Source of the DNA: an uncultured Christensenellaceae bacterium
GTDB taxonomy: Bacteria > Bacillota > Clostridia > Christensenellales > UBA3700
Length of the DNA stretch: 64,000 bases
Reading direction: 5' to 3'
Assembly: GCA_910587685.1 (NCBI GenBank)
Contig: CAJUMY010000003.1
Location: 64,600 to 128,599, forward strand
Shown piece by piece: positions 15,795-59,051 of this stretch. Made by a program: the position numbers and the translations under genes. The number at the start of each line of letters is the position of its first letter. Position 1 is the first letter of the stretch. A model generated the notes under the pieces. The model had not been told where the DNA came from, did not search any database, and saw only the letters and a list, made by a program, of their open reading frames with translations.

Positions 15795-16286
15795 TTACAC
15801 CCCAAATATAGCTCCGAGATACATACGAAGCGAAGAAACCTGCTTTTTATAGCCGCCGTCAAGGATCTTAGACGTGATCAAATTAGGAAAAAGATAGTTC
15901 TCTACGATATTGAAACACTCGACGAGAGCCACGGTATCGCCTACGCTTCCGCGAGTAACTATAGACGAACGGCAGTAAGCGTCTCTTATGCTCCGCTTCC
16001 CGATAAGATACGGTATCGCGACGTCGATATTCTTGAACGCTATCTCCAGATCGGGAGTATCTTCCCTTTTGGCTCCGACGAACTTTCCGTTCGACTTTTT
16101 TATCGACATACACGGCTTATACGGCAAAATGCGAAGCGTTATCACATATCCTTCGGGAAAGGTATCAATAAGCTCCTTAACGTTCGAATCGAGTCTCGAA
16201 GCCGCTTTCATACCGCCCTTTAAGAAAGCGAATATTATGCCGGCAAGCATTGCTTTTCCTACCTTGTATTTAGGTTCGTGTCTCAT
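15795..16286 (-). CDS. hypothetical protein, possible SCP2/sterol-carrier-like fold
   Basis: 163 aa with good SD (AAGAGG). The pattern DLEIAFKNIDVAIPYLIGKRSIRDAY...TRGSVGDTVAL resembles SCP2 domains. The stop is 4 nt from the ADH start. Confidence 0.5.
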   Translation of the reverse strand: MRHEPKYKVGKAMLAGIIFAFLKGGMKAASRLDSNVKELIDTFPEGYVITLRILPYKPCMSIKKSNGKFVGAKREDTPDLEIAFKNIDVAIPYLIGKRSIRDAYCRSSIVTRGSVGDTVALVECFNIVENYLFPNLITSKILDGGYKKQVSSLRMYLGAIFGV

Positions 16287-16332: not shown

Positions 16333-19300
16333 TCAATTAGCGACGGCGAAGGTAACTTTACCTACCGAATTTTCAACGTCGCTCGTAGAATATACGGTCG
16401 CGTCGCTATTGATAACGTTTCCGAGCGTTACATTGACGGTATTTCCGAGAACTTCAACCGGAATAACCAATTCGAATATCTCTCTCTTTATATCGTCTCT
16501 TATCTTGTTCATCTCTTCCGAATTTACGAAACTCGTCATTACGCTCATTTCGTCGGCGTTCATATCCGCCATGAAGAACTGTATCTCGCCCGACACAGTC
16601 ATGACGAGCGTAACGTAAACGTTATTCGGAACTATCGCATTTACCTCTTCGCCATCTCCGCTCTTTATCCTATCCGAGCTCACCGAAACGGTCGCAACGA
16701 TATAATTCGTCTCGCTCTCGCCGAGAGTGACAGGGTAATTCTCCTTTAAGAAACCGAGTTTCTCGCCCGTAACTATCGCAAACTGCGTAAGAACGCCGGT
16801 ATTAGCTATCTTCTCTTTGAGTATCTGAGCTAAGTACATATCCGTCATCGTCACGCCGAGTCCGCCCTCGGTAGTGAACGCGAAGTGATCGGACGCATCG
16901 GTATCTTTATTATAAGCATCGATATCGATAGCGTTGCCGTTCATATCGGTCATCTTATCGACGCTCTCTCCGCCCGCAAGTTTATAGAACGCGCTTCTAA
17001 CGGTCTCTCCCGTATGCGTTTTGTCCTCTTTCGAAATAGCCGAGGCTACTATGTCGAATATCGTACCCATACCGAGACTTCCCGCGTTATCCTCGCTCTT
17101 AGGCTCGTATTCTAGCCTAAATCCGCCGCTTTCTATCTTTGTTACCGTATCTTGCATCGTTGACGCAGACTTATCCGCGATATCGTCGATATTAACGCCT
17201 GCGCCGAATTTATTCAGTATAGCCGTTACTTTCGGCATATCGGAGTACTCGAGAGCGTTGAACGATATCTCCGCCTTGAATCTCTTTTCTCCTTCTGCGG
17301 CGTTTGCAACGTCGGTAATGACGGCTCTTATGTATATCTCGTTCGGCATGAACTCGCTAAATCCGTTAGCGTTATCATCGTCATCGGGAGATGCCTTAGC
17401 TTTCACCGCTTTGAGATACGCTATAACGCGTCCTTCGCCATCCGTTTTCTCTATTTCAGCCCTTACTATCTTCGGCTCTTCGAAACCGCTGAGCGAAACG
17501 GTTATTTCGCTACTCATGAGATACGCCAACTCTTCAGCGTAGAGTTTGATATCAAGCTCTCTCATATCTTTCGCTTGCTCTTCTTCGCTAACGAGTCTTG
17601 CAAAATCTACGTTGCTCTTATAACTCGACGAGATGGTAGAAAGCCACTCGGTCAGTTTCATATCCTCAGCTCTGTTCTCCGTCTTGAGATAAGCTCCGTT
17701 TCTAAGCGTCTCTTCGAACCTTCCTGTATTTGCCGCCGCATTTTCAAAACCGCTTCCGCCGAGCGACGAAGCATCGTACATCTTTGAAAGAAGCGCGTAT
17801 ATCTCGCGTCCGCCGGATATATCGTCCTCTTCGGTAAAGCCCGACTTATCATAGAGAATATCGTATATATTCTTTTCGATATTTATCCTGTCTTCCGAAA
17901 CTGAGAATTTTCCTACGGTCGCGGTTATTCCGCCGTTCGAGCCTTCTTCGCCGTCAAGCGTCTTTTTGAGCTCGGTCTTTATCTTTTCTTCCATCTCGGC
18001 GAACATACCGCTCTTTTCGGTCAATCCGCCGAGTATTCTCTCGACAGTCGTCTTATTGTTCTCTTTGATATCGTTGATTAGTACCTTCGTCACGTATTCT
18101 CCGTTAAAGTCTACGATAGCTCTGACGTATACGTCATTAGGCAACAGATTGCTATACGGAATACCCATAGGACCCGTCGCTTCGCCTGATACGTGTCCGC
18201 CGATTATGAGTTCGAGCTTGCCTTGCTCCGCAGAACCTGCGTATACCGCTCTCATATCCGAATACGGAAGAGAAGCCGCTATCTCTGCAAAGTTGACTTT
18301 GGAATTGATGAGCGCCGCCAACTCCTTACCCTCGAGATACATCCTAAGAGTATCGTACTTGTCGCCGCCTTGCGTATCCGAGATGAGTTTGTTCACGTTG
18401 ACGATATTCGTTATATTTCCGCCGCTTATAAGCGTTCCCATATCGGAAATCGCTTCGATGAGATTGTCTCCTCTGTACGGCTTCTTGTTATCGTTATCAG
18501 GATCGGCTTCGTTCTTAACATAGAGCTTGTTCTCTAGCTCCCTTACTACGAATCCGCTGTCGAGTATATCCGTAGTTATATTCCAGTCGGTACCGCTCGG
18601 TACGCTCTCCACGGTATAAAGATGTTTGAACGTATCCTCTATATCGGCTATCTCTATGACTCCGCTTTCGCTTTTTGAGTAATGCTGTATTATCTCGTAT
18701 ACAGTCGGAAGACTGATGCCGCCCTCTACTATTTCGATATTCGGCAGAGTAGTTTTGCCGCTATCTTCAGCGAACGCCGCGGGAGCCGTTCCGTTATCTT
18801 CTTCCTTTCCCTTTAGTATATCGAGGAATTTATTGACGTACTCTTCCACCGTCTTTACTATATTATCGATGTCGAGCTTCGCCGCTATATCGGGACTGAA
18901 TACTCCCATTATGCTAGAGAGAGTCTTGAACGCTTCTTTCGTCGCTACCGCTCCGTTGTCTCCCTCTATAAAGTTCAATATAACGTTCGACGAAGACCCT
19001 TCTTTCGCGCCCTCCGCAACGTCTATCTCTATATATAGATGCTTTGGAATGATCGACGTAACGAGATTGTATATTATGCTCTCTTTCGATATCATACCGC
19101 CTATAAGTCCTGCCGTATCGATACCTGCAACTATCTTCATTCTGTTTTCGCTTCCGTTCTTATACATATCGAAAGCCTCGACGTTAATATCGACGGGAAG
19201 ATTGACCCCTACGCTCTCGTCTCCGCTCTTGATAATGCCGTTTAGCACGTACGCGAGCGCGTTGTCTGTAATAAAGCTCTTGACCTTGAGCTCAGCTTGC

Positions 19301-20694
19301 GTCCTTTCGTAAAGTCTGCTGTCTACGATATTTATGCTCGAAGGTATCTCGCTGTAACGCTTATAAAAATCTACTGCCGTCCATTCCGATATGCCGCTTA
19401 TTCCGTACGCATCCGAAAGATCGGTCTTAAGCGCTATGAAGTCGCCTTCTGTCGGTCTGTTCTCGGAGCCTACGTTGTTATTGATGTATTCGTCGACGTT
19501 AGCGGAATCTAGTATCGCGTTATCCGCTCCGTGTATATACTTTACCATATAGAGGAAATCTTCGCTCGTTATCCTGTTTTCGGCGGGAGTATCTGCGGTA
19601 TTTATCTTAAGAGCTTTCATTATGAGCTCTATGGGATCGATACTAACTCCGCTCTCGACGAAGTTGAGCTCACCTACGTATCCTTCGATAGTACCGATCG
19701 TCTTTGAAATAGTTTCCGATACCTTAAGCAGCGTCGCGTCTATATCGAAACCGCCGCCCGTAAGGGACGAAACGTTCTTTATGAGAGTCAACAGATCCTC
19801 GTAGACTTCTCCCGAAATATTGTTAAAGAAAAAGCTGGGCTGTCTCTCCGCATCGTAAGGATATACGGTAGCGCCGACAAATATCTTCTTCGGTATGACG
19901 GGTTTTGCGAGCGTCGCGGCGATACTCGGAACGTCAGGCGATACTTTCGCAAGTATATCCGCTACGTTGTCTCTAAGTACTACCTCTATGACAAGCGACA
20001 TCTCGACGTCTTTCTTCTCCTCGGTAGATTTGTTAATGTCAATCTGCCTTACCCTGATGAGCTCCTTAAGCGGAACGCCTATCGTATTCTCTATCTCTTT
20101 GAGCTGAGGTATCTCGGCTTCTGTCATGACTTCGTTGATGACCGCCGCGAATTGCTTATCAGTAATATTAAGTTTGCTTCCGCCGCCGTTATAGCCCTTG
20201 AGCGTGGAAAAATCGAACTTCAATTCTTTGAGTATACTGTCTATGTAACCGTTGCCCGTCGTGAAGTCGTTCAATCCGCCGCCTTCGTTTTCGCCTTCGA
20301 AACTTACGTCCTTATCCGACCCGTCTCCGCTATCGGATCCGTTCTCCTGTCCCGAAAAGTCAAAATAGCCGCTGATCAGCTTAGCTATCGTAAAATCGTC
20401 GGGAAGCGTCAGATAGGTCGCGTTCTCGAATCCCTCGTAAAACGCAGTTCTATCCTCCGCCGAATAGGGATTGGTGACTATCTTCTTTTCGTCGCTGTTA
20501 TATAATCCCGAAAGTATCTTCATAACGTCGAACAATCCGACGCCGAGCTTCGGCTCGACAAACTTTCCGTATGCAAAATATCCGCCTACAAGCGACGCCG
20601 CCAAAAGCGCGACTATAAGTATAACTACGGTAATACAACATTTTAGACAGCAGTGATTACTTCTTTCTACCCTGTCAATTCTGTTTGCTCTCAT
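16333..20694 (-). CDS. giant N-terminally membrane-anchored repeat protein, function unknown
   Basis: The 1455-codon ORF is called from TTG 20700. ATG at 20694 has GGAGA 7 nt upstream. One TM segment (about residues 21-44). Five recurring modules ending in P-[KN]-x-[IVL]-Y-[IV]-x-x-x-V. Confidence 0.75.
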   Translation of the reverse strand: MRANRIDRVERSNHCCLKCCITVVILIVALLAASLVGGYFAYGKFVEPKLGVGLFDVMKILSGLYNSDEKKIVTNPYSAEDRTAFYEGFENATYLTLPDDFTIAKLISGYFDFSGQENGSDSGDGSDKDVSFEGENEGGGLNDFTTGNGYIDSILKELKFDFSTLKGYNGGGSKLNITDKQFAAVINEVMTEAEIPQLKEIENTIGVPLKELIRVRQIDINKSTEEKKDVEMSLVIEVVLRDNVADILAKVSPDVPSIAATLAKPVIPKKIFVGATVYPYDAERQPSFFFNNISGEVYEDLLTLIKNVSSLTGGGFDIDATLLKVSETISKTIGTIEGYVGELNFVESGVSIDPIELIMKALKINTADTPAENRITSEDFLYMVKYIHGADNAILDSANVDEYINNNVGSENRPTEGDFIALKTDLSDAYGISGISEWTAVDFYKRYSEIPSSINIVDSRLYERTQAELKVKSFITDNALAYVLNGIIKSGDESVGVNLPVDINVEAFDMYKNGSENRMKIVAGIDTAGLIGGMISKESIIYNLVTSIIPKHLYIEIDVAEGAKEGSSSNVILNFIEGDNGAVATKEAFKTLSSIMGVFSPDIAAKLDIDNIVKTVEEYVNKFLDILKGKEEDNGTAPAAFAEDSGKTTLPNIEIVEGGISLPTVYEIIQHYSKSESGVIEIADIEDTFKHLYTVESVPSGTDWNITTDILDSGFVVRELENKLYVKNEADPDNDNKKPYRGDNLIEAISDMGTLISGGNITNIVNVNKLISDTQGGDKYDTLRMYLEGKELAALINSKVNFAEIAASLPYSDMRAVYAGSAEQGKLELIIGGHVSGEATGPMGIPYSNLLPNDVYVRAIVDFNGEYVTKVLINDIKENNKTTVERILGGLTEKSGMFAEMEEKIKTELKKTLDGEEGSNGGITATVGKFSVSEDRINIEKNIYDILYDKSGFTEEDDISGGREIYALLSKMYDASSLGGSGFENAAANTGRFEETLRNGAYLKTENRAEDMKLTEWLSTISSSYKSNVDFARLVSEEEQAKDMRELDIKLYAEELAYLMSSEITVSLSGFEEPKIVRAEIEKTDGEGRVIAYLKAVKAKASPDDDDNANGFSEFMPNEIYIRAVITDVANAAEGEKRFKAEISFNALEYSDMPKVTAILNKFGAGVNIDDIADKSASTMQDTVTKIESGGFRLEYEPKSEDNAGSLGMGTIFDIVASAISKEDKTHTGETVRSAFYKLAGGESVDKMTDMNGNAIDIDAYNKDTDASDHFAFTTEGGLGVTMTDMYLAQILKEKIANTGVLTQFAIVTGEKLGFLKENYPVTLGESETNYIVATVSVSSDRIKSGDGEEVNAIVPNNVYVTLVMTVSGEIQFFMADMNADEMSVMTSFVNSEEMNKIRDDIKREIFELVIPVEVLGNTVNVTLGNVINSDATVYSTSDVENSVGKVTFAVAN

Positions 20695-20937
20695 CGACAA
20701 ATCTCCGTTTCTATGTTTTCTTTTACGATTTTATGTAATATAGGATAATATTTTTAATTTTACTATCTCTTACAGTATACAGTAACCGCCGCGAAAATAC
20801 AACCTAATTATATATATTAGCGCGTAGAAATTATTACCTAAAAATACGCGCGCGTCGGAGACGATCAAAAAATTACATATTTTTCTATCTATAAAATTCC
20901 ATCCTTGCGTACACACTATAGACGTAGAGGTGAATAT

Positions 20938-21048: not shown

Positions 21049-21123
21049 ATGCGTTGCGCTTGACTCGGCTGACGTATTCTGTTATAATTGTATCGAAAAA
21101 TAATCGTATATCAAGGAGAAAGT

Positions 21124-21852
21124 ATGTCTGATATCCGTATCAAGCGAGTGTTCATCATTATTATGATTTTGTTCTTTGCGTTCGCCGCGCTATTTATAGC
21201 GACGCTTTCGACGAACAACACGTTTAAGATATTTTTTACGAGCGAGATAGATAAGAACATCAAAGAAGATATTTATAATGTCGAAAACAAATACGTTTCC
21301 GGCGATTCAACGGTTTTTTTCGGAGATTCGATAACGGAAATGTACGATCTTGACAAATTCTATAAAGGTCATAACGTAGTCAATCGCGGTATAAGTTCCG
21401 AGACGAGCTACGAACTGCTCGACCGCTTGACCATGAACGTTATGTCTTTAGCTCCGAGACGCGTTATAATACTCGTCGGGACCAACGACATCGCGCATCA
21501 TTACACTAACAGCGAAATAGTGAACAATATCATGGAAATAGTCACGCATATACGATACTTTTCCGATACTACGGAGATAATCGTCGAGAGTATTCTCCCT
21601 GTAAACAATAGCGCTAATCTTCTTTCGAAATACGTTGTTAAGAACAGAACGAACGAGAACATCGACGCGATCAACCGAGAACTCGAACGCAACGCCCGTT
21701 ATTACGATTATACTTATATCGACACGGCGTCGACGCTGAAAGACGAGAACGGCAATTTGAAAAAAGACTTTACCGTCGACGGTCTTCACCTTTCGAAAGC
21801 GGGTTATTCCGCGCTTACCGATACGATAAAAGAACACGTACAGTTCGAATAA
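21124..21852 (+). CDS. SGNH/GDSL-family hydrolase with N-terminal membrane anchor
   Basis: Block I FFGDSITE, block III GTNDI, block V DGLHLS. Start moved to the ATG after AAGGAGA. Confidence 0.8.
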   Translation: MSDIRIKRVFIIIMILFFAFAALFIATLSTNNTFKIFFTSEIDKNIKEDIYNVENKYVSGDSTVFFGDSITEMYDLDKFYKGHNVVNRGISSETSYELLDRLTMNVMSLAPRRVIILVGTNDIAHHYTNSEIVNNIMEIVTHIRYFSDTTEIIVESILPVNNSANLLSKYVVKNRTNENIDAINRELERNARYYDYTYIDTASTLKDENGNLKKDFTVDGLHLSKAGYSALTDTIKEHVQFE

Positions 21853-21882: not shown

Positions 21883-21920
21883 ACGGCAGAGCGTCTTACA
21901 CATCGCTCTGCCGTCTTTTA
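21883..21920. terminator. bidirectional intrinsic terminator
   Basis: ACGGCAGAGCG-10 nt loop-CGCTCTGCCGT. It is followed by a T-rich tract on both strands. Confidence 0.8.
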
Positions 21921-21951: not shown

Positions 21952-22251
21952 AAAATAAATCGCTAATAAATTACGCTGCTCTCAAACAACCGGTTACATT
22001 TTGTAACCACTTCACTTGTTCCAGTATATTACTAAATTACACTACTCTCAAACAGCTGTCCGCATATTTCAGACGCTACCCATGTTCAAGTTTGTTATTA
22101 AATTACACTACTCTCAAACCCAACACGAATACGCCCCTTCAAAAGCCTAGTTCAAGTTTGTTTCTAAATTACACTACTCTCAAACCATATCGTAATATAT
22201 ATAAAAGTCTACTGAGTTCAAGTTTGTTTCTAAATTACACTACTCTCAAAC
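21952..22251 (-). CRISPR. 5-unit CRISPR mini-array (36-nt repeats, 30-nt spacers), type II-like repeat, no adjacent cas genes
   Basis: Repeats at 22216-22251 and 22150-22185 are identical. 22084-22119 has 2 mismatches, 22018-22053 has 4, and 21952-21987 keeps only 19/21 of one half. The four spacers are each exactly 30 nt and unrelated to one another. The decay gradient puts the leader at 22252-22350, so transcription is on the minus strand. Sense repeat: GTTTGAGAGTAGTGTAATTTAGAAACAAACTTGAAC. Confidence 0.75.
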
Positions 22252-22350
22252 CTCAAATAAATAAATTCAAGAGTATCACGTTTACTAGACGCGGTAATTT
22301 ATGTTTTATCATAGTTATTATGAGCTTTTATGATCGATCGCTTTTATATG

Positions 22351-25254
22351 TCACTGCTGACCGCAACACTTCTTATACTTTTTACCGCTGCCGCATGGAC
22401 ATGGGTCGTTAGGACCTATTTTAGGTTGACTTCTGACATAGGTCTCGACCTTCTCCGCTTTCTCCGGCTGACGCTTTACGTTCACGCGTCTCTTGCCTTT
22501 ACTTTCGCCCTCCGCAGCGCTTCTTTCATTAGTAGACGTCTCTTCCGCTCTCTGCGTGAAGGTCACTTCTTCGGAAATATTGCACTTCGCCAAGATAGTC
22601 GCCACACTGCTCCGTATATGCGAAACCATATCGTTATACATATCGGTTCCCTCTCTCTGGAACTCGATAAGAGGATCTTTGTTAGCAAACGCGCGAAGTC
22701 CTATGCCCTTTTCAAGCGCGTCCATACTATCCATATGATCTATCCATAGATTATCCATAGTATCGAGAAGTACTCCTCTCTCCACTCTGTCAAAGTCGAT
22801 GCCGACAGCCTTTAATCTCTCTACCTTCTCTTCGTACTGTCTTATTACCTCGTCTCTTACCGCATCGTGTATCTTACGCTTCGTTGCAAGCTCGTAGGTG
22901 ACGATACCTGTATTTTCGCTAAGAAGTTTAGACGCTATCGTCTCGTTGAAAACGTCGTAATCCCATTTTGAGCAGTCGACGGTATAGTCTACAAGATCGT
23001 TCACCAACTTATCGGCAAGCTCTTTCATCATATTGACGACCTTGTCGTGAACGTTGACCCCGTCTATTATCCTATTCCTTTCCGCGTATATTTCTCTTCT
23101 CTGCGCGTTGACGATCCCGTCATACTTGAGCACCGTCTTTCTGCTGAGGAAGTTACGTCCCTCGACCTTTTTCTGAGTAGCCTCTATCACTTTCGATACC
23201 ATCTGGCTCTTGACAAGATAGCCGGTGTCTTCTTCCGCGAAGATGCGGAATTTATCGATCATTCCCTTCTCGCCGAAATTCTTAAACATCTCGTCCTCAA
23301 GAGCGATATAGAATACCGAAGAACCGGGATCTCCCTGTCTTCCGCTACGTCCTCTAAGCTGATTGTCTATACGTCTCGCTTCGTGGCGTTCCGTACCGAT
23401 AATACGGAGACCGCCGAGCTTTATGACCTCTTCTTTATTTGCGTCTGTATCTTTCTTGTATTCGGCGTAAAGTTCGTTGTATTCGCCGCGTATCTTGAGA
23501 ATATTCTCGTCGTCCGTCTGAACGTGAGAATTTGCGACGGCTATATCCTCTTTTGCGTAGCCTTTTTCTAGCAGTCTTTGATTGGCAAGATGTTCCGGAT
23601 TCCCGCCGAGCATGATGTCGGTGCCTCGTCCTGCCATATTGGTAGCTATGGTGACGCTTCCTTTACGTCCCGCCTGAGCTATTATATCAGCCTCGCGCTC
23701 GTGATTTTTAGCGTTGAGAACCTCGTGCTTTATCCCTCTTACGTTTATTCTCTTATCCTCTTTGAGGATCATTCTCGTAACTGCCGCAAGTCTTTCTTCG
23801 TAGCCGTCTCTAACGCCCCAATCCTTTTCGTCGGTCTCTAAAAAGTACTGTATGAACTTATTCCTTTTAAGAGCATCCTTGACGTCGATACGCTCCAAAA
23901 GGCTCGAATACATTTCGCTCGAATCTACGTTGACCGTACCTATCAAAACAGGCTGTTCAAGCGCGTAACATACCGCTATGTCCTCCAGGATCGCATTTAC
24001 CTTGTTCTCTTCGCTGAGATAGATCTCATCGGCTTCGTCGAATCTTTCGATAGGTTTGTGCGTAGGTATCGTAAGTACCTCGATACCGTATATGTCCTTG
24101 AACTCGTCTTCTTCCGACTTTGCCGTACCTGTCATACCTGCGAGTTTATTGTACAATCTGAAGAAATTCTGATACGTTATCGTGGCGAGAGTCTTGTTCT
24201 CGACCTGTATCTCGACGCCCTCTTTAGCTTCGAGCGCTTGATGAAGACCGTTAGAATATCTTCTGCCCTCCAGCGTTCTTCCCGTGAACTCGTCGACTAT
24301 GATGACCTGTCCGTTATTGACGATGTAATCTTTATCGCGGCGCATCGCAAAACGCGCTTTGAGCGCATTGTTGATTTGGAAAAACGTATCTTGATTTTCG
24401 ATATCTCCGAGATTTTCGATTTTGAAGAATTCCTCGGCTTTTCTTGCGCCGCTCTCTTCAAGACGCACTGTTTTGTCCTTATTCTCCATCGCGTAATCGC
24501 TCTCGTCGAGCGTCTTTACGAAATCTTTCGCGGCAATATATATCTTCCTCTCGTCATCGTCGTTGGAATTATTTTTGCGTCCCGATATTATGAGCGGAGT
24601 ACGTGCTTCGTCGATAAGAATACTGTCCACCTCGTCGATAAGAGCGAACTCCAAAGGACGCTGTATCCTCTGTTCTTTCGATATTACCATATTGTCTCTT
24701 AGGTAATCGAACCCGAGCTCGGAATTCGTCGCGTAAGTAATGTCGGCAAGATAAGCCTTCTGCTTTTCGGCATGGCTCATACCGTTTACGGATATTCCGA
24801 CGGTAAGACCCAAAAATTTATATATCTTCCCCATCCACTCGGCGTCTCTTGCGGCAAGATAACTGTTGACCGTAACGACGTGAACGCCTTTACCCGTAAG
24901 AGCGTTGAGATACACGGGAAGCGTAGCGACGAGCGTCTTTCCTTCTCCCGTCATCATCTCTGCGATCCTTCCCTGATGAAGAGCGACGCCGCCTATGACC
25001 TGCTCGTAATAATGCATCATTCCGAGCGTTCTCCTCGACGCTTCGCGAACCGCGCTGAAAGCCTCGGGAAGCAGCGAATCGAGACTCTCTCCCTCGTTGC
25101 ATCTTGCCTTGAACTCCTCCGTCTTAGCCTTTAACGCGTTATCGTCCAAAGCCGCGTATTCTTCTTCGTACGCCATGACTTTATCGGCGATCTTCTTCAA
25201 TTTATCTATCTGTTTAGTATTCTGACTCGCAAAAATTTTGCTTAATATTCCCAT
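22351..25254 (-). CDS. secA: preprotein translocase ATPase SecA
   Basis: DEAD-like motor motifs (MMTGEGKT, DEVDSILIDEARTPLIIS, GRGTDI) and C-terminal zinc SEC-C motif CPCGSGKKYKKCCG. Start at the ATG after GGAGG (MGILSKIF...). Confidence 0.95.
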   Translation of the reverse strand: MGILSKIFASQNTKQIDKLKKIADKVMAYEEEYAALDDNALKAKTEEFKARCNEGESLDSLLPEAFSAVREASRRTLGMMHYYEQVIGGVALHQGRIAEMMTGEGKTLVATLPVYLNALTGKGVHVVTVNSYLAARDAEWMGKIYKFLGLTVGISVNGMSHAEKQKAYLADITYATNSELGFDYLRDNMVISKEQRIQRPLEFALIDEVDSILIDEARTPLIISGRKNNSNDDDERKIYIAAKDFVKTLDESDYAMENKDKTVRLEESGARKAEEFFKIENLGDIENQDTFFQINNALKARFAMRRDKDYIVNNGQVIIVDEFTGRTLEGRRYSNGLHQALEAKEGVEIQVENKTLATITYQNFFRLYNKLAGMTGTAKSEEDEFKDIYGIEVLTIPTHKPIERFDEADEIYLSEENKVNAILEDIAVCYALEQPVLIGTVNVDSSEMYSSLLERIDVKDALKRNKFIQYFLETDEKDWGVRDGYEERLAAVTRMILKEDKRINVRGIKHEVLNAKNHEREADIIAQAGRKGSVTIATNMAGRGTDIMLGGNPEHLANQRLLEKGYAKEDIAVANSHVQTDDENILKIRGEYNELYAEYKKDTDANKEEVIKLGGLRIIGTERHEARRIDNQLRGRSGRQGDPGSSVFYIALEDEMFKNFGEKGMIDKFRIFAEEDTGYLVKSQMVSKVIEATQKKVEGRNFLSRKTVLKYDGIVNAQRREIYAERNRIIDGVNVHDKVVNMMKELADKLVNDLVDYTVDCSKWDYDVFNETIASKLLSENTGIVTYELATKRKIHDAVRDEVIRQYEEKVERLKAVGIDFDRVERGVLLDTMDNLWIDHMDSMDALEKGIGLRAFANKDPLIEFQREGTDMYNDMVSHIRSSVATILAKCNISEEVTFTQRAEETSTNERSAAEGESKGKRRVNVKRQPEKAEKVETYVRSQPKIGPNDPCPCGSGKKYKKCCGQQ

Positions 25255-26437: not shown

Positions 26438-28668
26438 CTTCTCGAATTTTCCTCTATAATAAAATCTTTCAGCATACTGTACCGCTTCTGCGTATAATTG
26501 TTACGCACCATTTTCGCTACGTTATCCTTGTCTCCTATAAGGACGACCATTTCCTTTGCTCTCGTGACCGCCGTATACAGAAGGTTTCTCGTGAGTATCA
26601 TATAGTTGCCTGCCGTGACAGCTATTATCGCTATCGGGAACTCAGAGCCCTGCGACTTATGCACGCTTATCGCGTACGCCAACAACAGATCGTACGCGGC
26701 TTCGGAGTCGTACTTCGCGATACGCAGATCGTCAAACTCGACGGTAAGCGTAGTCTTGCCGTTATTCTTTTCGATACTTTTGATATATCCGATATCGCCG
26801 TTAAAGACTCCCACTCCAGATTCCGCCGTATCGCCCATATCATCGAGCTTTATCCACTCAAGATTGTAATTATTGACCGTATGAATTACTTTATCGCCTT
26901 CTCTCAATAAAAAGTTGCCTATATGTACCTCATTTTTTGATATATCGTGTGGATTTAACGTCTCTTGCAACATAACGTTGAGATGTTCGACGCCCGCTAT
27001 TCCCTTCTTCATCGGACACAGGACTTGAATATCTTTTGGATGTACCCCTTTGTATTTGGGAATACGTTCGGTGACCATACTTATCACTGCGTCGGCTATA
27101 TCCTTCGGAGAGCTCTTCATATCGAAAAAGAAATCTTTGCTCGAATTGTCTATCTTAGGCATCTCGCCTTTATTTATGCGGTGCGCGTTTTCGACGATGA
27201 GACTCTTGTCGTTCTCCTGTCTATATATTTGCGTCAGATAGCTGACGGGAACGATGCCGCCCGCGCCTATTATGTCCGCAAGAACGTTGCCCGCCCCGAC
27301 CGACGGCAACTGATCCTTATCTCCTACCATAATGAGCCTACCGCCGTTCTTGATCGACTTTATGAGCGCGTTAAACATATATTCGTCGCACATACTGACT
27401 TCGTCGACGATTATAACGTCGGAGGAAAGACGGAAGTTTTCGTTATACGTAAAATACCCCTTTCCGTCCTTAAAATCGAGATCGAGCATACGGTGAACGG
27501 TCTTGGCTTGCTCTCCGGTAGCTTCGCTAAGTCTCTTCGCGGCCCTTCCAGTAGGCGCGGCAAGCGATACGGTATATCCCTGCGACTTTAATATGCCGAT
27601 TATACACCTTATTATAGTGGTCTTTCCCGTTCCGGGTCCGCCGGTTATTACGTTGACGCCCGCTCTTAAACAGTTCTTTATCGCAAGTTTTTGATTTTCG
27701 TGAAGAACTATATCGTTGATCCTCTCGTATTCCTTTATATCGCCGTCGATATCGAGCATTAACGGCGGCGTATGATTCATCATATAGACCAGCTTTGTCG
27801 CTATCGATTTTTCCGCTATATAATGCTTTGAAAGTATCACCGCCGTATATCCGTCTCTATCGATGAGCGTGACGCGTCCTATTATCTCGAGCTCGTCGAT
27901 CGCGCTGACGATAAGCTCTTCATACTCGTCTCTTTGAAGCTCCAAAATATCGAGACACTCGGCGATCAATATGTCTTTAGGCAGATGCGTATGTCCGTTC
28001 TTTACAACGACTTCGCTGAGAACGTAGCATATACCTGCCTTTATTCTGAACGCGCTGTCCTTTTCTATACCGAGACTCATCGCTATCTTATCGGCTTTCT
28101 TGAATCCTATCCCTTCTATGTCGTTGATGAGAATATAGGGATTTTCTTCGACCTTCTTGACAGCGTTCGCTCCGTACGCCTTATATATTTTAAGAGCTAC
28201 AGCAACGGATATTTCGTATGCGGAAAAGGCGACTATAACTTCCTGCATAGCTTTGTTGCCGGTAAAAGCGTCGCTTATCTGCATAGCTTTCTTTATATTG
28301 ATGCCCTTTAGCCTAGCGAGTAAAAGAGGTTCTTTTTCAATGACGTCGAAGGTTTTGTCGCCGAACGCTTCAACGATACTTGTCGCCAACACGTACCCTA
28401 CGCCTGAAAACAATTCGCTCGATAAAAATCTTATCATCCCCTCTTTGTTATTCGGCATTAGTTTCTTTACGGATCTTACAGCTATCTGTTCGCCGTACTT
28501 TGGATTCTCCTTTATTTCGCCGTCTATCTCAACGTTCTCGCCTTCGCTCATAGGCGGCATATTCCCGACTGCCGTATACAAAAAACCGTCAACGCTCACG
28601 TCTATGACGCTGTAACCGTTCTCTATATTCTGAAATATTACGCTCTCGACAGTACCGGAAAATTTCAT
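26431..28668 (-). CDS. recD2: SF1B ATP-dependent RecD-like DNA helicase (RecD2)
   Basis: 745 aa. Walker A GGPGTGKTT, DEVSM, and C-terminal helicase motifs (YAISVHKSQGSEF, TAVTRAK). Confidence 0.85.
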   Translation of the reverse strand: MKFSGTVESVIFQNIENGYSVIDVSVDGFLYTAVGNMPPMSEGENVEIDGEIKENPKYGEQIAVRSVKKLMPNNKEGMIRFLSSELFSGVGYVLATSIVEAFGDKTFDVIEKEPLLLARLKGINIKKAMQISDAFTGNKAMQEVIVAFSAYEISVAVALKIYKAYGANAVKKVEENPYILINDIEGIGFKKADKIAMSLGIEKDSAFRIKAGICYVLSEVVVKNGHTHLPKDILIAECLDILELQRDEYEELIVSAIDELEIIGRVTLIDRDGYTAVILSKHYIAEKSIATKLVYMMNHTPPLMLDIDGDIKEYERINDIVLHENQKLAIKNCLRAGVNVITGGPGTGKTTIIRCIIGILKSQGYTVSLAAPTGRAAKRLSEATGEQAKTVHRMLDLDFKDGKGYFTYNENFRLSSDVIIVDEVSMCDEYMFNALIKSIKNGGRLIMVGDKDQLPSVGAGNVLADIIGAGGIVPVSYLTQIYRQENDKSLIVENAHRINKGEMPKIDNSSKDFFFDMKSSPKDIADAVISMVTERIPKYKGVHPKDIQVLCPMKKGIAGVEHLNVMLQETLNPHDISKNEVHIGNFLLREGDKVIHTVNNYNLEWIKLDDMGDTAESGVGVFNGDIGYIKSIEKNNGKTTLTVEFDDLRIAKYDSEAAYDLLLAYAISVHKSQGSEFPIAIIAVTAGNYMILTRNLLYTAVTRAKEMVVLIGDKDNVAKMVRNNYTQKRYSMLKDFIIEENSRRC

Positions 28669-28940: not shown

Positions 28941-30122
28941 TTACTTAATTAGCGCCTTTATTGCATCGACCTTATCGGTCTTCTCCCAACTGAAGCCTTC
29001 TCTTCCGAAATGTCCGTAGTTGGTTGTCTTTCTGAATATCGGCTTCCTTAGATCGAGCGCGTCTATTATAGCGCTGGGTCTCAAATCGAACACCTTGCCT
29101 ATTATCTCTTTTATCTTGTCGTTGCCGAGCTTGCTCGTTCCAAAGGTATTTACCTCGACCGATACGGGTTTTGCAACGCCTATAGCGTACGCGATATCGA
29201 CCTGACACTTATTCGCAATACCGCTCGCAACTATATTCTTAGCGACGTATCTAGCCATGTAGCACGCGCTTCTGTCTACCTTCGTCGGGTCCTTTCCGCT
29301 GAACGCTCCCCCGCCGTGCGGACAGTAACCGCCGTACGAGTCAACGATTATCTTACGTCCCGTAAGTCCGCTGTCCCCGTGCGGTCCGCCTATGACGAAA
29401 CGTCCCGTCGGATTGATATATATTTTGGTATTTTCATCGATAAGATCCTTGTCAATGACCTCTCTTATTACGAACTTCTCTATGTCGTGTCTTAACATAT
29501 CGGTATGCGCGCTGTCGGAATGTTGAGACGAAACGACTATCGCCTCTATCCTCGAAGGTTTGTCGTTCTCGTCATATTCGACAGTTACCTGCGCCTTACC
29601 GTCGGGACGAAGATAGGGAAGAGTTCCGTTCTTGCGGACTTCCGTAAGTCTCTTCGTCAGTTTATGCGCAAGATATATCGGCATAGGCATGAGCGAATCG
29701 GTCTCGTTTGTAGCATATCCGAATACCATACCTTGATCGCCTGCGCCTATTTCGTCATATTTATCCTTGCCGTCGCTATTCTCTTTGTTCTCGAGAGCGC
29801 TGTCAACGCCCATTGCAATGTCCGAAGACTGCCTATCAAGACTCACCACAATAGCGCAAGTATTGCCGTCGAATCCCATGCTTGCGTCGTTATAACCTAT
29901 ATCGAGTATGACATCTCTCGCGATCGACGGTATATCGAGAGTCGCCTTCGTCGTTATCTCGCCCATAATGAGAGCGAATCCTGTGCTGCAACACGTCTCG
30001 CATGCGACGCGGCTCATAGGATCTTCCTTTAGGCACGCGTCCAAAACTGCGTCCGAAATCTGATCGGATACTTTATCGGGATGTCCTTCCGTTACGCTTT
30101 CGCTTGTAAATAATCTCTTCAT
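28941..30122 (-). CDS. metK: S-adenosylmethionine synthase
   Basis: 393 aa. [28 protein letters not shown] signature motifs. Confidence 0.95.
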
Positions 30123-30277
30123 ATGTCCTCCGAAAAATATAGCTATCTTTTCTCGAAAGATAGCTATATGTAGCGATGTTTTCTATCTTCCAAGACAAAT
30201 ATCTTGCAGAATTTAGCACCTTGGATCAGGTTGCTGTGCCTTCCTCGGGTCTGTTCCCTCCGACACTCTAAATAGAA
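30123..30277 (-). promoter_or_regulatory. SAM-I (S-box) riboswitch with terminator expression platform
   Basis: Minus strand reads TTCTATTTAGAGTGTCGGAGGGAACAGACCCGAGGAAGGCACAGCAACC...GGTGCTAAATTCTGCAAG...GAAGATAGAA, matching the S-box core. It is followed by ATAGCTATCTTT-CGAG-AAAGATAGCTAT plus a T run directly before the metK SD. Confidence 0.85.
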
Positions 30278-30296
30278 TGGATATTCAGTTGTAGAC

Positions 30297-52717: not shown

Positions 52718-52752
52718 TCTAAGCTCTGCTTATAATTGTTTGAAAGTAGTAT

Positions 52753-57746: not shown

Positions 57747-58985
57747 TTACTCAAACTCATAGTTGCCGTTAAATAAATCTTCAAATCTTATGGCATTAGT
57801 TATGTATTCCATAGTTGTTTTTCCTTTTGCTCCATCAGCCCCATCTTTTCCCTTTTCTCCTGCTTTATCAAACAATCCTTTAGCACCTCCAGAGCCACCG
57901 GCACCGCCATTGCCACCGTCGCCACCTGTTCCCCATCCTCCATTTTTTCCATCTAAAATTGTCAGCAAACTTTTATCTCCGAATTGACTATGGTCGTAGT
58001 TAGTTATAGTGGCTACACCGCCTCGTGACGCTTTACCTCCGTCACCGCCGTCTCCGCCATTTCCACCATTACCGCCATTTCCAGCATTTTTTGTTTTAAT
58101 ATTGTCATCAGCGCCATTGCCACCGTTGCCGCCATTGCCGCCGTTTCCTCCGTTTCCGCCTTTTCCTCCGTTACCACCGGTAACAGAAATTGTTCCTTGT
58201 AAATACCAATTTATCTTAACCGCAAAAATTCCTATTCCTCCGTTTGTCATCGCATTTCCACCGTTTTTTCCTTTTCCTCCAGCGCCGCCTATACCTCCGT
58301 GCTTTGCATAATCATCAGTATTAACACCGTCGCGTCCTACCTCTCCTACTGCACCTTCCGCCCCGTCAACGCCGTTCATACCATCTATTCCAACAATCTT
58401 TGTATACGACCCCTTCGCAGTTCTTATTCTAAGCGTATTACGAACATATATTACACAGTAATCGGCAGGTTTGAATTCGTCGAAACCAGCTAGAGCGTAA
58501 TTTTTAATCTCGTTCTTTCCCTTAAACGTAATGTCATACTCGCAATCTACCGCCTTAAAAACGTTAGGATTACCGCTACATTTGAGACCGTCAACAGTAA
58601 AATACAGCGGTCGCTGATTTCGTTCCTCATTTGTAAACATTATACTGCTAAGATGAGCGTAAACTTCTTTTGAAGTATCATATCCGTAAATAATAACGTG
58701 GTTTACGTTTGCCGGAATTGTAAAAGTCATTACCATTGCTAAACTGCTCTTCTGATTTCGCAAATCAATTATTATACCGTCTGTTTTACAATTCTCCACA
58801 TCTTTCTTACTGAAATAATCAACTATTTCATAAGTCGCATATTCTGAAATAGCAGGAATATCCGCCTCTAGCGACTCCGCTTCGACGGAACTCATTCCTA
58901 TACTGCCGATTGCGACGATAGCAGTCGCTAAAAAGCAAAGAATGACAACAATAGAAGTCAAATTCTTCTTTTTCGTTAAACGCAT
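57747..58985 (-). CDS. secreted/anchored glycine-repeat protein (G-X-Y and GGN runs)
   Basis: N-terminal hydrophobic signal/anchor (IVVILCFLATAIVAIGSIG), a beta-rich domain of about 160 aa, then a Gly-rich half at residues 201-391. GGGAGG SD. Start is either ATG 58991 or 58985. Confidence 0.8.
   Translation of the reverse strand: MRLTKKKNLTSIVVILCFLATAIVAIGSIGMSSVEAESLEADIPAISEYATYEIVDYFSKKDVENCKTDGIIIDLRNQKSSLAMVMTFTIPANVNHVIIYGYDTSKEVYAHLSSIMFTNEERNQRPLYFTVDGLKCSGNPNVFKAVDCEYDITFKGKNEIKNYALAGFDEFKPADYCVIYVRNTLRIRTAKGSYTKIVGIDGMNGVDGAEGAVGEVGRDGVNTDDYAKHGGIGGAGGKGKNGGNAMTNGGIGIFAVKINWYLQGTISVTGGNGGKGGNGGNGGNGGNGGNGADDNIKTKNAGNGGNGGNGGDGGDGGKASRGGVATITNYDHSQFGDKSLLTILDGKNGGWGTGGDGGNGGAGGSGGAKGLFDKAGEKGKDGADGAKGKTTMEYITNAIRFEDLFNGNYEFE
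57819..58391 (-). repeat. in-frame triplet (GGN / G-X-Y) codon repeat tracts
   Basis: Plus strand shows runs such as gccaccgttgccgccattgccgccgtttcctccgtttccgcc, which are imperfect 9-nt periodic repeats. Confidence 0.8.
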
Positions 58986-59051
58986 AATCATTTCCTCCCG
59001 AATATTGTTAAAGTTTTAGACACCAAGCGTATTGACCCTCTTTATGACTAC

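What the first reader, a model, noticed from the sequence alone, without database searches (positions are those of the whole stretch)
21952..22350. Orphan type II-like CRISPR mini-array directly behind secA, with no cas gene in 64 kb
**Array geometry.** There are five 36-nt units separated by four unrelated spacers of exactly 30 nt. The two rightmost repeats are identical (+ strand GTTCAAGTTTGTTTCTAAATTACACTACTCTCAAAC). Moving leftward, the next repeats carry 2 and 4 mismatches, and the last keeps only a 19/21 half-repeat.

**Orientation.** That decay gradient is the usual trailer-end signature. It places the leader at 22252-22350 and transcription on the minus strand, co-directional with secA.

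**Repeat type.** The sense repeat is GTTTGAGAGTAGTGTAATTTAGAAACAAACTTGAAC. The 36/30 geometry and the GTTTGAGAG...AAC ends are what I associate with Cas9 (type II-A-like) repeats. From memory it is close to the Treponema denticola-type repeat.

**Missing partners.** No Cas9-, Cas1-, Cas2- or Csn2-like ORF and no obvious tracrRNA lies anywhere in the window. The flanks are secA and an SGNH hydrolase.

**Transcription context.** I found no hairpin+U terminator between the secA stop (22351) and the first repeat. The first strong terminator (21883-21920) lies just past the array, so secA read-through could produce pre-crRNA.

**Possible explanations.**
- A relic of a deleted type II locus.
- An array serviced in trans by a distant cas9.
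- A repurposed, non-immune use of crRNA-like transcripts tied to an essential gene's transcript.
Basis: partly seen in the sequence, partly recalled or inferred. Interest (0 to 1): 0.75.

Follow-up and report, generated by a model that had tools for sequence, protein, structure and literature searches.

The report
Stand-alone type II-A CRISPR array behind secA
This is a genuine Cas9-type (II-A) CRISPR array that sits alone after the secA gene with no cas genes nearby; other strains carry different spacers at the same site, so it is a living immune memory used by cas genes encoded elsewhere, which is a known arrangement rather than a new kind of system.

Summary
Window 21952-22251 holds five 36-nt repeats (36, 36, 34, 32 and 23 of 36 identical to the reference) and four 30-nt spacers at an exact 66-nt period. 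The sense strand is minus, co-directional with secA.

The repeat's first 20 nt match a large repeat family. In that family the arrays follow cas9-cas1-cas2-csn2. The 99-nt leader ends in ATTTGAG|GTTT, the published Group-1 type II-A integration motif.

I found no cas gene and no tracrRNA in the 64 kb, and no cas domain in about 19 kb of added flank.

The decisive result comes from other strains of the same uncultured species, whose flanks are 98-99.7% identical. They carry the same secA-leader-array-terminator-lipase locus with 4 to 14 or more spacers. They share the trailer end and differ at the leader end. One strain equals another plus a single leader-end spacer. This indicates ongoing or recent acquisition, so Cas9, Cas1, Cas2, Csn2 and tracrRNA must act in trans.

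I could not locate that cas locus. This strain may have lost it. No spacer targets were found.

The closest precedent is the orphan CRISPR2 array of Enterococcus faecalis. This is a new member of a known kind, of modest interest.

The parts
22351..25254 (-). secA (967 aa), the gene directly upstream of the leader and co-directional with the array
   Evidence: Pfam SecA_DEAD, P-loop_SecA, SecA_SW and SEC-C; NCBIfam PRK12904 at 1055 bits. The exact 967-aa product starting at the ATG is on record in 45 blocks of the collection; 24 contigs were read.
22252..22350 (-). CRISPR leader, 99 nt, running from the secA stop codon to repeat 1. Its last 7 nt (22252-22258, ATTTGAG on the minus strand) are the type II-A Group-1 leader-end motif.
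   Evidence: Sequence read directly. The same leader end occurs in 34 of about 62 family arrays, plus 17 one-base variants. The motif is described in PMC5382924. The leader is 95-96% identical in other strains. No terminator and no stable fold.
22216..22251 (-). Repeat 1 (leader-proximal), GTTTGAGAGTAGTGTAATTTAGAAACAAACTTGAAC
22186..22215 (-). Spacer 1 (newest), TCAGTAGACTTTTATATATATTACGATATG; found only in the window-type strain
22150..22185 (-). Repeat 2, identical to repeat 1
22120..22149 (-). Spacer 2, TAGGCTTTTGAAGGGGCGTATTCGTGTTGG; found only in the window-type strain
22084..22119 (-). Repeat 3 (34/36). This is the ...TTTAATAACAAACTTGAAC variant that predominates in other strains.
22054..22083 (-). 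Spacer 3, ATGGGTAGCGTCTGAAATATGCGGACAGCT; shared with strains L129 and L130 at the same position relative to the trailer
22018..22053 (-). Repeat 4 (32/36), a decayed variant shared by all complete arrays
21988..22017 (-). Spacer 4 (oldest), AAGTGAAGTGGTTACAAAATGTAACCGGTT; shared by every complete array seen (window, L127, L128, L129, L130)
21952..21987 (-). Degenerate terminal repeat (23/36; the 5' 20 nt are kept at 18/20)
   Evidence: identical in all complete arrays
21883..21917 (.). G+C-rich hairpin between the array and the convergent lipase gene; probably a bidirectional terminator that ends the pre-crRNA/secA transcript
   Evidence: Inverted repeat I3, 14-nt arms, 93% complementary. Fold -25.1 kcal/mol, z = -3.2.
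21088..21852 (+). GDSL/SGNH lipase gene, convergent with the array; the conserved downstream flank in all strains
   Evidence: Pfam Lipase_GDSL_2, E = 8e-25. 99.4-99.7% nucleotide identity in other strains.

Best explanation
This is a bona fide type II-A CRISPR array with an intact leader. It stands alone between secA and a lipase gene. It works with a Cas9/Cas1/Cas2/Csn2 set and a tracrRNA encoded somewhere else: more than about 30 kb away on the trailer side and more than about 50 kb away on the leader side, on another replicon, or only in part of the population.

Proposed mechanism:
1. Cas1-Cas2-Csn2-Cas9 recognise the ATTTGAG|GTTT leader-repeat junction and insert 30-nt spacers at the leader end, duplicating the first repeat.
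2. The array is transcribed on the minus strand, from a leader promoter and/or by read-through from secA, and the transcript stops at the hairpin at 21883-21917.
3. tracrRNA supplied in trans pairs with the repeats. RNase III and Cas9 mature the crRNAs, and Cas9 cuts matching invader DNA.

Shown here: the anatomy, the family assignment of repeat and leader, the absence of cas genes and tracrRNA locally, and leader-polarised spacer differences between near-identical strains. Inferred: transcription, processing, interference, and where the cas genes are.
For: **Geometry and significance.**

**Family.** The 20-nt repeat core occurs in more than 120 genome loci with a 66-nt period. Loci L060, L092, L136, L139, L143 and L144 show cas9-cas1-cas2-csn2, then leader, then array. 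The closest full repeat (L092) matches the window repeat 30/36 and the species' predominant variant 32/36.

**Leader.** It ends in ATTTGAG, as in 34 family arrays plus 17 near variants. The literature reports ATTTGAG as the Group-1 II-A leader end. It also reports that 10 nt of leader plus one repeat suffice for adaptation even at a non-CRISPR locus (PMC5382924).

**Strain comparison.** Flanks are 98.2-99.7% identical. L127 has 14 spacers, L128 has 6, L130 has 8, L129 equals L130 plus one leader-end spacer, L131 has four new leader-end spacers, and L135 has yet another first spacer. Spacer 4 and the degenerate repeat are common to all complete arrays, and window spacer 3 is shared with L129 and L130. 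L129, L130, L131 and L135 carry the same SecA protein allele yet differ at the leader end. In all, 35 of 36 unique spacers are 30 nt and one is 31 nt. Many metagenome contigs break inside the array, as expected for a polymorphic array.

**No local partners.** None of the 69 contigs read for three SecA alleles showed cas genes beside secA.

**Precedent.** 23% of CRISPR arrays lie more than 20 kb from cas genes, and 75% of those match a cas subtype present in trans (PMC7145637).
Against: - No cas locus or tracrRNA of this organism was found.
- The genome-specific half of the repeat occurs nowhere else in the JGI metagenome collection or in IMG/VR.
- Eight Cas9 clusters were inspected. Seven carry repeats only 22-27/36 like this species' repeat, and for P0017/L142 the contig ends before any array.
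- Ten NCBI Cas9 clusters yielded five accessions, none near the species' SecA accession.
- No protospacer was found for any of 36 pooled spacers in GenBank phages or PLSDB plasmids, nor for seven spacers in IMG/VR. So interference and a PAM are not shown.
- No sigma-70-like promoter scored in the leader.
- The window-type array is short and identical in three other assemblies. This is also what a frozen array would look like.
- The order of repeat variants needs recombination as well as acquisition.
Confidence: 0.62

Rival explanations
1. The array is a true orphan in this strain. It is a real type II-A array that has been active in the species, but the window strain has lost, or never received, the cas operon and tracrRNA. 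Here it would be a silent, slowly decaying memory that can be reactivated if cas genes return by horizontal transfer. This is the situation of Enterococcus faecalis strains that keep CRISPR2 but lack CRISPR1-cas.
For: - The window array is the shortest seen: 4 spacers against 6 to 14 or more.
- It is identical in the NCBI MAG and two JGI samples.
- No cas gene lies in about 83 kb.
- The repeat was not found at any other locus, and the Cas9 search failed.
- Orphan arrays are on average shorter than distant ones, 8 versus 13 repeats (PMC7145637).
- E. faecalis CRISPR2 shows that such a state is stable and common (PMC4580645).
Against: - Repeats 1 and 2 are still identical to each other, and the leader with its ATTTGAG end is intact.
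- Spacers 1 and 2 are unique to this strain, so it or its recent ancestor acquired them.
- Failing to find cas genes in partial data is weak evidence, because only about 83 kb of a genome of unknown size (presumably megabases) could be viewed.
Confidence: 0.3
2. The array has a repurposed, non-immune use. It would be kept because its transcript, made as a 3' extension of the essential secA mRNA, has a regulatory or structural role independent of Cas9.
For: There is no terminator between secA and repeat 1, and a strong hairpin right after the array. The position is conserved in all strains. The oldest spacer forms a perfect hairpin.
Against: A sequence-specific regulatory RNA would have conserved 'spacers'. 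Here all but the trailer-end ones differ between strains whose flanks are 98-99.7% identical. The leader and repeats carry the features needed for Cas1-Cas2 integration. No spacer has a convincing match in the host window; the best are 19/21 and 22/24 partial matches.
Confidence: 0.04
3. It is not a CRISPR array at all, but a tandem or dispersed intergenic repeat element that happens to have a 66-nt period.
For: None beyond its small size (five units).
Against: The repeat is not dispersed: all five matches lie in one block, against 0 expected. Spacers are unrelated to each other and vary between strains. The repeat core is identical to that of cas9-linked arrays, and the leader end carries the type II-A motif.
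Confidence: 0.01

Closest known systems
Enterococcus faecalis CRISPR2, the orphan type II-A array (Hullahalli et al. 2015, PMC4580645)
   Same: Both have 36-nt repeats, 30-nt spacers and a degenerate terminal repeat. Both lack adjacent cas genes and sit at a fixed chromosomal position in every strain. [quoted passage not shown]
   Different: In E. faecalis the cognate cas locus (CRISPR1-cas, identical repeat) is known and present in a subset of strains. Here no cognate cas locus has been found. The host is an uncultured, phylogenetically isolated Clostridia-like lineage, with its nearest SecA only 55% identical. The array abuts the stop codon of secA.
Canonical type II-A loci with Group-1 leaders, such as Streptococcus thermophilus CRISPR1 and the family loci L060, L092, L136 and L139
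   Same: The repeat's 5' 20 nt are identical to those of L060 and L092; L136 and L139 differ at about two positions. The GAG|GTTT junction is shared, with the full ATTTGAG end confirmed in L092 and in 34 of about 62 family arrays overall. Leader length is similar (about 50-150 nt in the family, 99 nt here). Geometry is 36/30, and turnover is leader-polarised.
   Different: Those arrays lie directly downstream of csn2, with the tracrRNA just upstream of cas9 on the opposite strand. Here secA occupies the place of csn2, and neither the cas genes nor the tracrRNA are within view.
'Distant' and 'orphan' CRISPR arrays as classified by Bernheim et al. 2019 (PMC7145637)
   Same: The array is more than 20 kb from any cas cluster and is shorter than cas-adjacent arrays. 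Its repeat can be typed by similarity to a known subtype.
   Different: Whether it is 'distant' (cas genes elsewhere in the genome) or 'orphan' (no cas genes in the genome) cannot be decided from the data available.
Listeria monocytogenes RliB-CRISPR
   Same: A small cas-less array at a conserved chromosomal site that is nevertheless expressed and can work with a cas system supplied in trans.
   Different: It belongs to a different CRISPR type (type I repeats) with PNPase-dependent processing. Here nothing is known about processing.

Membership tests
CRISPR array (generic) | Three or more near-identical direct repeats of constant length, separated by unique spacers of near-constant length | tested here: met
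   Five 36-nt repeats, four unrelated 30-nt spacers, period exactly 66. 0.00 expected by chance.
CRISPR array (generic) | Spacer content varies between closely related genomes while the flanks are conserved, with polarity (shared trailer end, variable leader end) | tested here: met
   Six distinct array versions lie between flanks that are 98.2-99.7% identical. The trailer spacer is common to all complete arrays. L129 equals L130 plus one leader-end spacer.
CRISPR array (generic) | Degenerate terminal repeat at the leader-distal end | tested here: met
   The repeat at 21952-21987 matches 23/36 and is identical in all complete arrays.
Type II-A CRISPR-Cas | Repeat belongs to a repeat family that is physically linked to cas9-cas1-cas2-csn2 | tested here: met
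   The 5' 20 nt are identical to arrays in more than 120 loci. Pfam confirms Cas9, Cas1, Cas2 and Csn2 upstream of such arrays in L060, and Csn2 in L092 and L074. The same operon appears in L136, L139, L143 and L144. Full-length identity is 30/36 to L092 for the window repeat and 32/36 for the species' predominant variant.
Type II-A CRISPR-Cas | Leader 3' end carries the subtype's integration motif (Group 1: ATTTGAG, junction GAG|GTTT) | tested here: met
   The leader ends ...TTATTTGAG|GTTTGAGAG. The motif occurs in 34 of about 62 family arrays and is defined in PMC5382924.
Type II-A CRISPR-Cas | cas9, cas1, cas2 and csn2 encoded next to the array | tested here: not met
   tblastn with three sets of family Cas proteins against the window gave a best E-value of 0.2. 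Pfam and NCBIfam scans of neighbouring genes were negative. No cas family appears among the 25 PADLOC families shown, of 42 that matched. No cas domain is called in the roughly 19 kb of extended flanks.
Type II-A CRISPR-Cas | tracrRNA with an anti-repeat complementary to the repeat | tested here: not met
   In the duplex scan, positive controls gave -27 to -46 kcal/mol just upstream of cas9. The window's best was -23 to -25, equal to random background. The covariance model built from 10 family tracrRNAs scored 104-106 bits on further copies of two training systems, but 17 bits or less in the window, and there only on the antisense of the repeats. Only the 64-kb window and about 20 kb of other strains' flanks were searched.
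Type II-A CRISPR-Cas | Spacers match mobile elements, with a conserved PAM 3' of the protospacer | tested here: inconclusive
   No credible hit for 36 pooled spacers in GenBank phages or PLSDB plasmids, nor for seven spacers in IMG/VR. The host is uncultured, so its mobile elements are probably unsampled.
Type II-A CRISPR-Cas | Array is transcribed and processed to mature crRNAs by tracrRNA, RNase III and Cas9 | not testable with these tools
   No expression data. Only the absence of a terminator in the leader and the presence of one after the array could be shown.
Distant / orphan array (Bernheim et al. 2019) | More than 20 kb from the nearest cas cluster | tested here: met
   About 32 kb on the trailer side and about 51 kb on the leader side are free of cas genes.
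Distant / orphan array (Bernheim et al. 2019) | Cognate cas cluster present ('distant') or absent ('orphan') elsewhere in the same genome | not testable with these tools
   The rest of the genome could not be read. Indirect searches found nothing.
E. faecalis CRISPR2-like species-wide orphan array | Same chromosomal site in all strains, with variable spacers | tested here: met
   In the 69 contigs read for three SecA alleles, no place with different neighbouring genes was reported, and every place long enough to show it has secA-array-lipase. Spacers vary.
E. faecalis CRISPR2-like species-wide orphan array | Repeat identical to that of a cas-linked array found in some strains of the same species | tested here: inconclusive
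   No cas-linked array with this repeat was found in the collections that could be scanned.

The most novel reading that the evidence does not exclude
The species may carry no resident cas operon at all. The secA-linked array would then be kept as a permanent, constitutively expressed memory, riding on read-through from an essential gene. It would be written and used only when a mobile element transiently brings a compatible cas9-cas1-cas2-csn2-tracrRNA module, or refreshed by recombination of array blocks between strains. That would be a population-level split between immune memory and immune machinery.
Probability: 0.08. Interest if true: 0.6.

Novelty: new member of a known kind. Interest (0 to 1): 0.3.

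Why it matters
The finding matters in two ways. It also gives a clean natural example, in an abundant but uncultured and phylogenetically isolated gut-type lineage, of a Cas9-type array that keeps acquiring spacers while physically separated from its cas genes.

Such loci are useful as strain-typing markers. They also bear on how leader-repeat junctions alone recruit the integration machinery. If the cas genes turn out to be absent or mobile, the locus would show how immune memory and machinery can be inherited separately. It does not open a new mechanistic question, because distant and orphan arrays make up about 35% of all arrays and E. faecalis CRISPR2 is a studied precedent.

Tried and rejected
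**The 1455-aa ORF as a divergent Cas9.** I suspected the ORF 1.2 kb from the array (16333-20700) might be one. It has no Pfam or NCBIfam hit and no tblastn similarity to family Cas9s, and it looks like an acidic membrane-anchored protein. Rejected.

**Hunt for this species' cas operon.**
- The metagenome scan for the genome-specific half of the repeat found only the same locus in another strain.
- The IMG/VR scan for the predominant repeat variant found nothing.
- A Cas9 homologue search gave 1794 hits. Eight clusters were inspected: P0050, P0113, P0017, P0019, P0122, P0110, plus L060 and L092. Seven have other repeats (22-27/36) and different GC (0.31-0.51 against 0.453). For P0017/L142 the contig ends before any array.
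- Ranking Cas9 hits by amino-acid composition as a GC proxy was too coarse to pick a candidate.
- Checking whether NCBI Cas9 accessions sit next to the species' SecA accession MCI8728330.1 gave none.

**Cross-species synteny of the secA 3' flank.** This was impossible, because the nearest SecA outside the species cluster is 55% identical.

**Spacer targets.** Nothing credible in GenBank phages or PLSDB plasmids for the 36 pooled spacers, nor in IMG/VR for the seven spacers scanned. There is no self-target in the window beyond two short partial matches that look like chance or a conserved P-loop.

**Candidate anti-repeat at 52738-52752 (-).** It is a 15-nt match directly after an ABC-transporter stop codon. 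It lacks the family tracrRNA bulge, nexus and middle hairpin, is not hit by the covariance model, and is at background duplex energy. Rejected.

**Rfam.** No family matches the family tracrRNAs, so a custom model was needed.
Full report

Yes. On the + strand, 36-nt units start at 21952, 22018, 22084, 22150 and 22216, an exact 66-nt period. They are separated by four mutually unrelated 30-nt spacers. Against the two identical right-hand units, identity falls leftward: 36, 36, 34, 32 and 23 of 36. The last unit keeps only the half that is the 5' half on the sense strand.

The 22-nt core occurs five times in 64 kb, all on the minus strand and all in this block, against 0.00 expected from shuffles. 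No other array-like repeat exists in the window. Tandem Repeats Finder did not report it, as expected for unrelated spacers.

**2. Surroundings.**

- Upstream, in the sense (minus) direction, is secA. Its likely start is the ATG at 25254, giving 967 aa, and its stop is at 22351-22353.
- Between the stop codon and repeat 1 lie 99 nt with no terminator-like site and no stable fold (MFE -8.4 kcal/mol, z = +0.7).
- After the degenerate repeat comes a strong G+C-rich hairpin at 21883-21917 (-25 kcal/mol, z = -3.2). It sits between the array and a convergent GDSL lipase gene at 21088-21852 (+).
- The next gene is a 1455-aa ORF of Cas9-like size, so I tested it. It has no Pfam or NCBIfam hit and no similarity to Cas9.

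**3. What kind of repeat and leader?**

Nearly all are arrays with a 66-nt period. Most come from Clostridia MAGs, with a few from Spirochaetes, including Treponema putidum.

Where the upstream DNA is held, these arrays follow cas9-cas1-cas2-csn2. Pfam confirms Cas9_REC/PI/HNH/RuvC, Cas1, Cas2 and Csn2. The family is therefore type II-A.

Over the full length, the closest repeat (L092) matches the window repeat 30/36 and this species' predominant variant 32/36. T. putidum matches 27/36.

The window's leader ends ...TTATTTGAG, directly followed by GTTTGAGAG. Among family arrays with enough upstream sequence, 34 end in exactly ATTTGAG and 17 more in a one-base variant. Van Orden et al. describe ATTTGAG as the Group-1 type II-A leader end and GAG/GTTT as the conserved junction. 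They also summarise experiments showing that the last 10 nt of the leader plus one repeat are sufficient for adaptation, even at a non-CRISPR locus (PMC5382924).

**4. Are the partners really missing?**

- **cas genes in the window.** tblastn with Cas9, Cas1, Cas2 and Csn2 from three family loci finds nothing in the window; the best E-value is 0.2. A PADLOC scan of 43 window proteins lists no cas family among the 25 families shown, of 42 that matched; the listed matches are generic ATPase and helicase models. Spot Pfam checks show housekeeping genes: rpoB/rpoC, metK with a SAM riboswitch, recD2, ftsH, argS, rho and ABC transporters.
- **Extended flanks.** Look-ups with edge proteins extended the view by about 8.5 kb and 9 kb beyond the window. 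No cas domain is called there.
- **tracrRNA by duplex energy.** In four canonical loci the anti-repeat lies just upstream of cas9 on the opposite strand, at -27 to -46 kcal/mol. The window's best values (-23 to -25) equal those of random 20-kb sequences (-22 to -26).
- **tracrRNA by covariance model.** A model built from ten family tracrRNAs scores 104-106 bits on the copies in L137 and L141. These are further copies of two training systems, so not fully independent. In the window, and in other strains' flanks, it finds only the trivial antisense of the array repeats, at 17 bits or less.
- **One candidate rejected.** A 15-nt anti-repeat-like stretch at 52738-52752 (-) is the 3' end of an ABC-transporter gene. 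It lacks every other tracrRNA feature.

**5. The decisive evidence: other strains.**

The exact SecA protein is on record in 45 blocks of the collection, and its 90% cluster holds 40 alleles seen on hundreds of contigs. NCBI names one of them 'Clostridia bacterium'. The genome-specific half of the repeat occurs in only one other JGI contig (L127), and that contig is the same locus.

Across the strains recovered, secA is 98.2-98.5% identical, the leader 95-96%, and the terminator plus lipase gene 99.4-99.7%. The array differs:

| Strain(s) | Spacers | Notes |
|---|---|---|
| window = L121 = L122 = L123 | 4 | Spacers 3 and 4 shared with L129/L130 |
| L128 | 6 | Shares the trailer spacer and one internal spacer with L129/L130 |
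| L130 | 8 | |
| L129 | 9 | Exactly L130 plus one extra spacer next to the leader; this leader-end spacer is also seen in L132-L134 |
| L131 | 9 or more | Four new leader-end spacers ahead of two spacers shared with L129/L130; contig ends inside the array |
| L135 | 1 or more | A different first spacer; contig ends inside the array |
| L127 | 14 | One repeat-spacer unit is duplicated |

Every complete array ends with the same spacer (AAGTGAAGTGGTTACAAAATGTAACCGGTT), the same decayed repeat 4 and the same degenerate terminal repeat.

L129, L130, L131 and L135 carry the same SecA protein allele (and the same 49 nucleotide differences from the window's secA) yet differ at the leader end. The pool contains 36 unique spacers: 35 of 30 nt and one of 31 nt. 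Many metagenome contigs stop inside the array.

A shared trailer, a private leader end and a single-spacer step are the classic signature of leader-polarised acquisition. No strain has cas genes at this locus: across the 69 contigs read, no place with different neighbouring genes was reported.

**6. What this means.**

At the species level the array is not a relic. It has been written to recently and repeatedly at this cas-less site. That requires Cas1-Cas2 (with Csn2 and Cas9 in type II-A) acting in trans. Use of the spacers additionally requires Cas9 and a tracrRNA.

The most likely picture (confidence about 0.6) is a distant array served by a cas locus elsewhere in the genome or on another replicon. 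The main rival (about 0.3) is that this particular strain lacks the cas genes while other strains have them. Its array is the shortest seen and is identical in three other assemblies, which fits that rival. This is the E. faecalis situation, where orphan CRISPR2 is universal and variable but CRISPR1-cas is present only in some strains (PMC4580645).

I could not decide between the two.

The order of repeat variants cannot be produced by leader-end duplication alone. The AGAAAC variant sits at the leader end in the window but deep in L127, and L131 differs from L129 on both sides of a shared spacer pair. This implies block exchange or deletions as well. Such exchange also fits the E. faecalis precedent.

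**7. Transcription.**

There is no terminator before repeat 1, a strong hairpin follows the array, and no sigma-70-like promoter scores in the leader. It remains untested. AT-rich leaders often hold weak promoters that such scans miss.

**8. Spacer targets.**

None were found in GenBank phages or PLSDB plasmids for the 36 pooled spacers, nor in IMG/VR for the seven spacers scanned. This is unremarkable for an uncultured lineage whose nearest SecA relative is 55% identical. It does mean that interference and a PAM are not demonstrated.

**9. Novelty and score.**

Arrays more than 20 kb from cas genes make up 23% of all arrays, and genome-level orphans 12%. Three quarters of distant arrays match a cas subtype present in trans (PMC7145637). 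A type II-A orphan with variable spacers is already well described in E. faecalis.

This locus is therefore a new member of a known kind. Its merit is a clean population-level demonstration of activity at a site that abuts an essential gene. Interest is 0.3.

The most novel reading not excluded has a probability of about 0.08. In it, the species has no resident cas operon, and memory and machinery are inherited separately.

Noticed in passing
window 30180-30278 (-): A SAM-I riboswitch (Rfam RF00162, 72.5 bits) lies upstream of the S-adenosylmethionine synthetase gene (28941-30122, -). This fits a Firmicutes-type host rather than a spirochaete.
   Followed up: no
window 16333-20700 (-) and 15795-16286 (-): A 1455-aa ORF and a following 163-aa ORF have no Pfam or NCBIfam hit. 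The large one has an N-terminal hydrophobic segment and is acidic. Both are conserved next to the lipase gene in all strains seen. It is not Cas9, despite its size.
   Followed up: partly
window 21988-22017 (spacer 4); hairpin 21991-22009: The oldest spacer, shared by every complete array, contains a perfect hairpin (GGTTACA-AAA-TGTAACC). The scan flagged it as terminator-like. It might attenuate transcription before the degenerate repeat, or it may simply come from a terminator on a mobile element.
   Followed up: no
window 22182-22202 vs 22623-22643: The 3' 17 nt of spacer 1 plus 4 nt of the adjoining repeat match a site inside secA at 19/21. The match crosses the repeat-spacer border, so it is probably chance and not a self-target.
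   Followed up: partly
window 27619-27642 (recD2) vs L128 spacer 5: A spacer from another strain (TATAGGTCTTTCCCGTTCCTAGTCCGCCAG) matches the host recD2 gene at 22/24, near the start of its Pfam P-loop (AAA_30) domain hit. It probably derives from a helicase gene on a mobile element. It has no exact match in IMG/VR.
   Followed up: partly
window 22084-22251; L127 1115-2074; L129 and L131 arrays: The order of repeat sequence variants (AGAAACAAAC, AATAACAAAC, AATAACAGAC) along the arrays is inconsistent with simple copying of the leader-proximal repeat. L131 also differs from L129 on both sides of two shared spacers. This points to recombination of array blocks between strains or with another array.
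   Followed up: partly
L127 1283-1414: One repeat-spacer unit (spacer CATACGACGGCAGTCCTATCTATAGTGATA) is present twice in tandem.
   Followed up: no
window 57747-58991 (-); tandem repeats 57883-58179: A 414-aa ORF rich in 9/18/27-nt tandem repeats, with no Pfam hit, is present in the window and in L149 but absent from strain L148. It is a strain-variable repeat protein gene.
   Followed up: no
window 52738-52752 (-): A 15-nt stretch complementary to the repeat's 5' end (13 Watson-Crick and 2 G-U pairs) sits directly after an ABC-transporter stop codon and before its terminator. It is at background energy, lacks tracrRNA features and is not hit by the tracrRNA model.
   Followed up: yes
whole window (host identity): The host is abundant in public metagenomes, with SecA alleles on hundreds of contigs up to 243 kb. 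Yet its nearest SecA relative outside the species is only 55% identical, and NCBI names it only 'Clostridia bacterium'. It is a phylogenetically isolated, uncultured lineage.
   Followed up: partly
L145 4001-9000: An unrelated MAG carries a degenerate type II-A locus beside a phage-type integrase: cas9, a 202-aa cas1 fragment and a 124-aa csn2 fragment, with no cas2. It still has an 8-repeat array.
   Followed up: no
L060 1201-1313 (-), L136 3682-3800 (-), L139 3788-3912 (-), L143 4804-4918 (-) and six more: The tracrRNAs of this repeat family share a clear consensus: anti-repeat with an AAG bulge, AAGCAUUUUGCGAAAUCAUCG, a CCACAnUGUGUGG hairpin, then a terminator. No Rfam family matches them at E <= 1.
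   Followed up: partly
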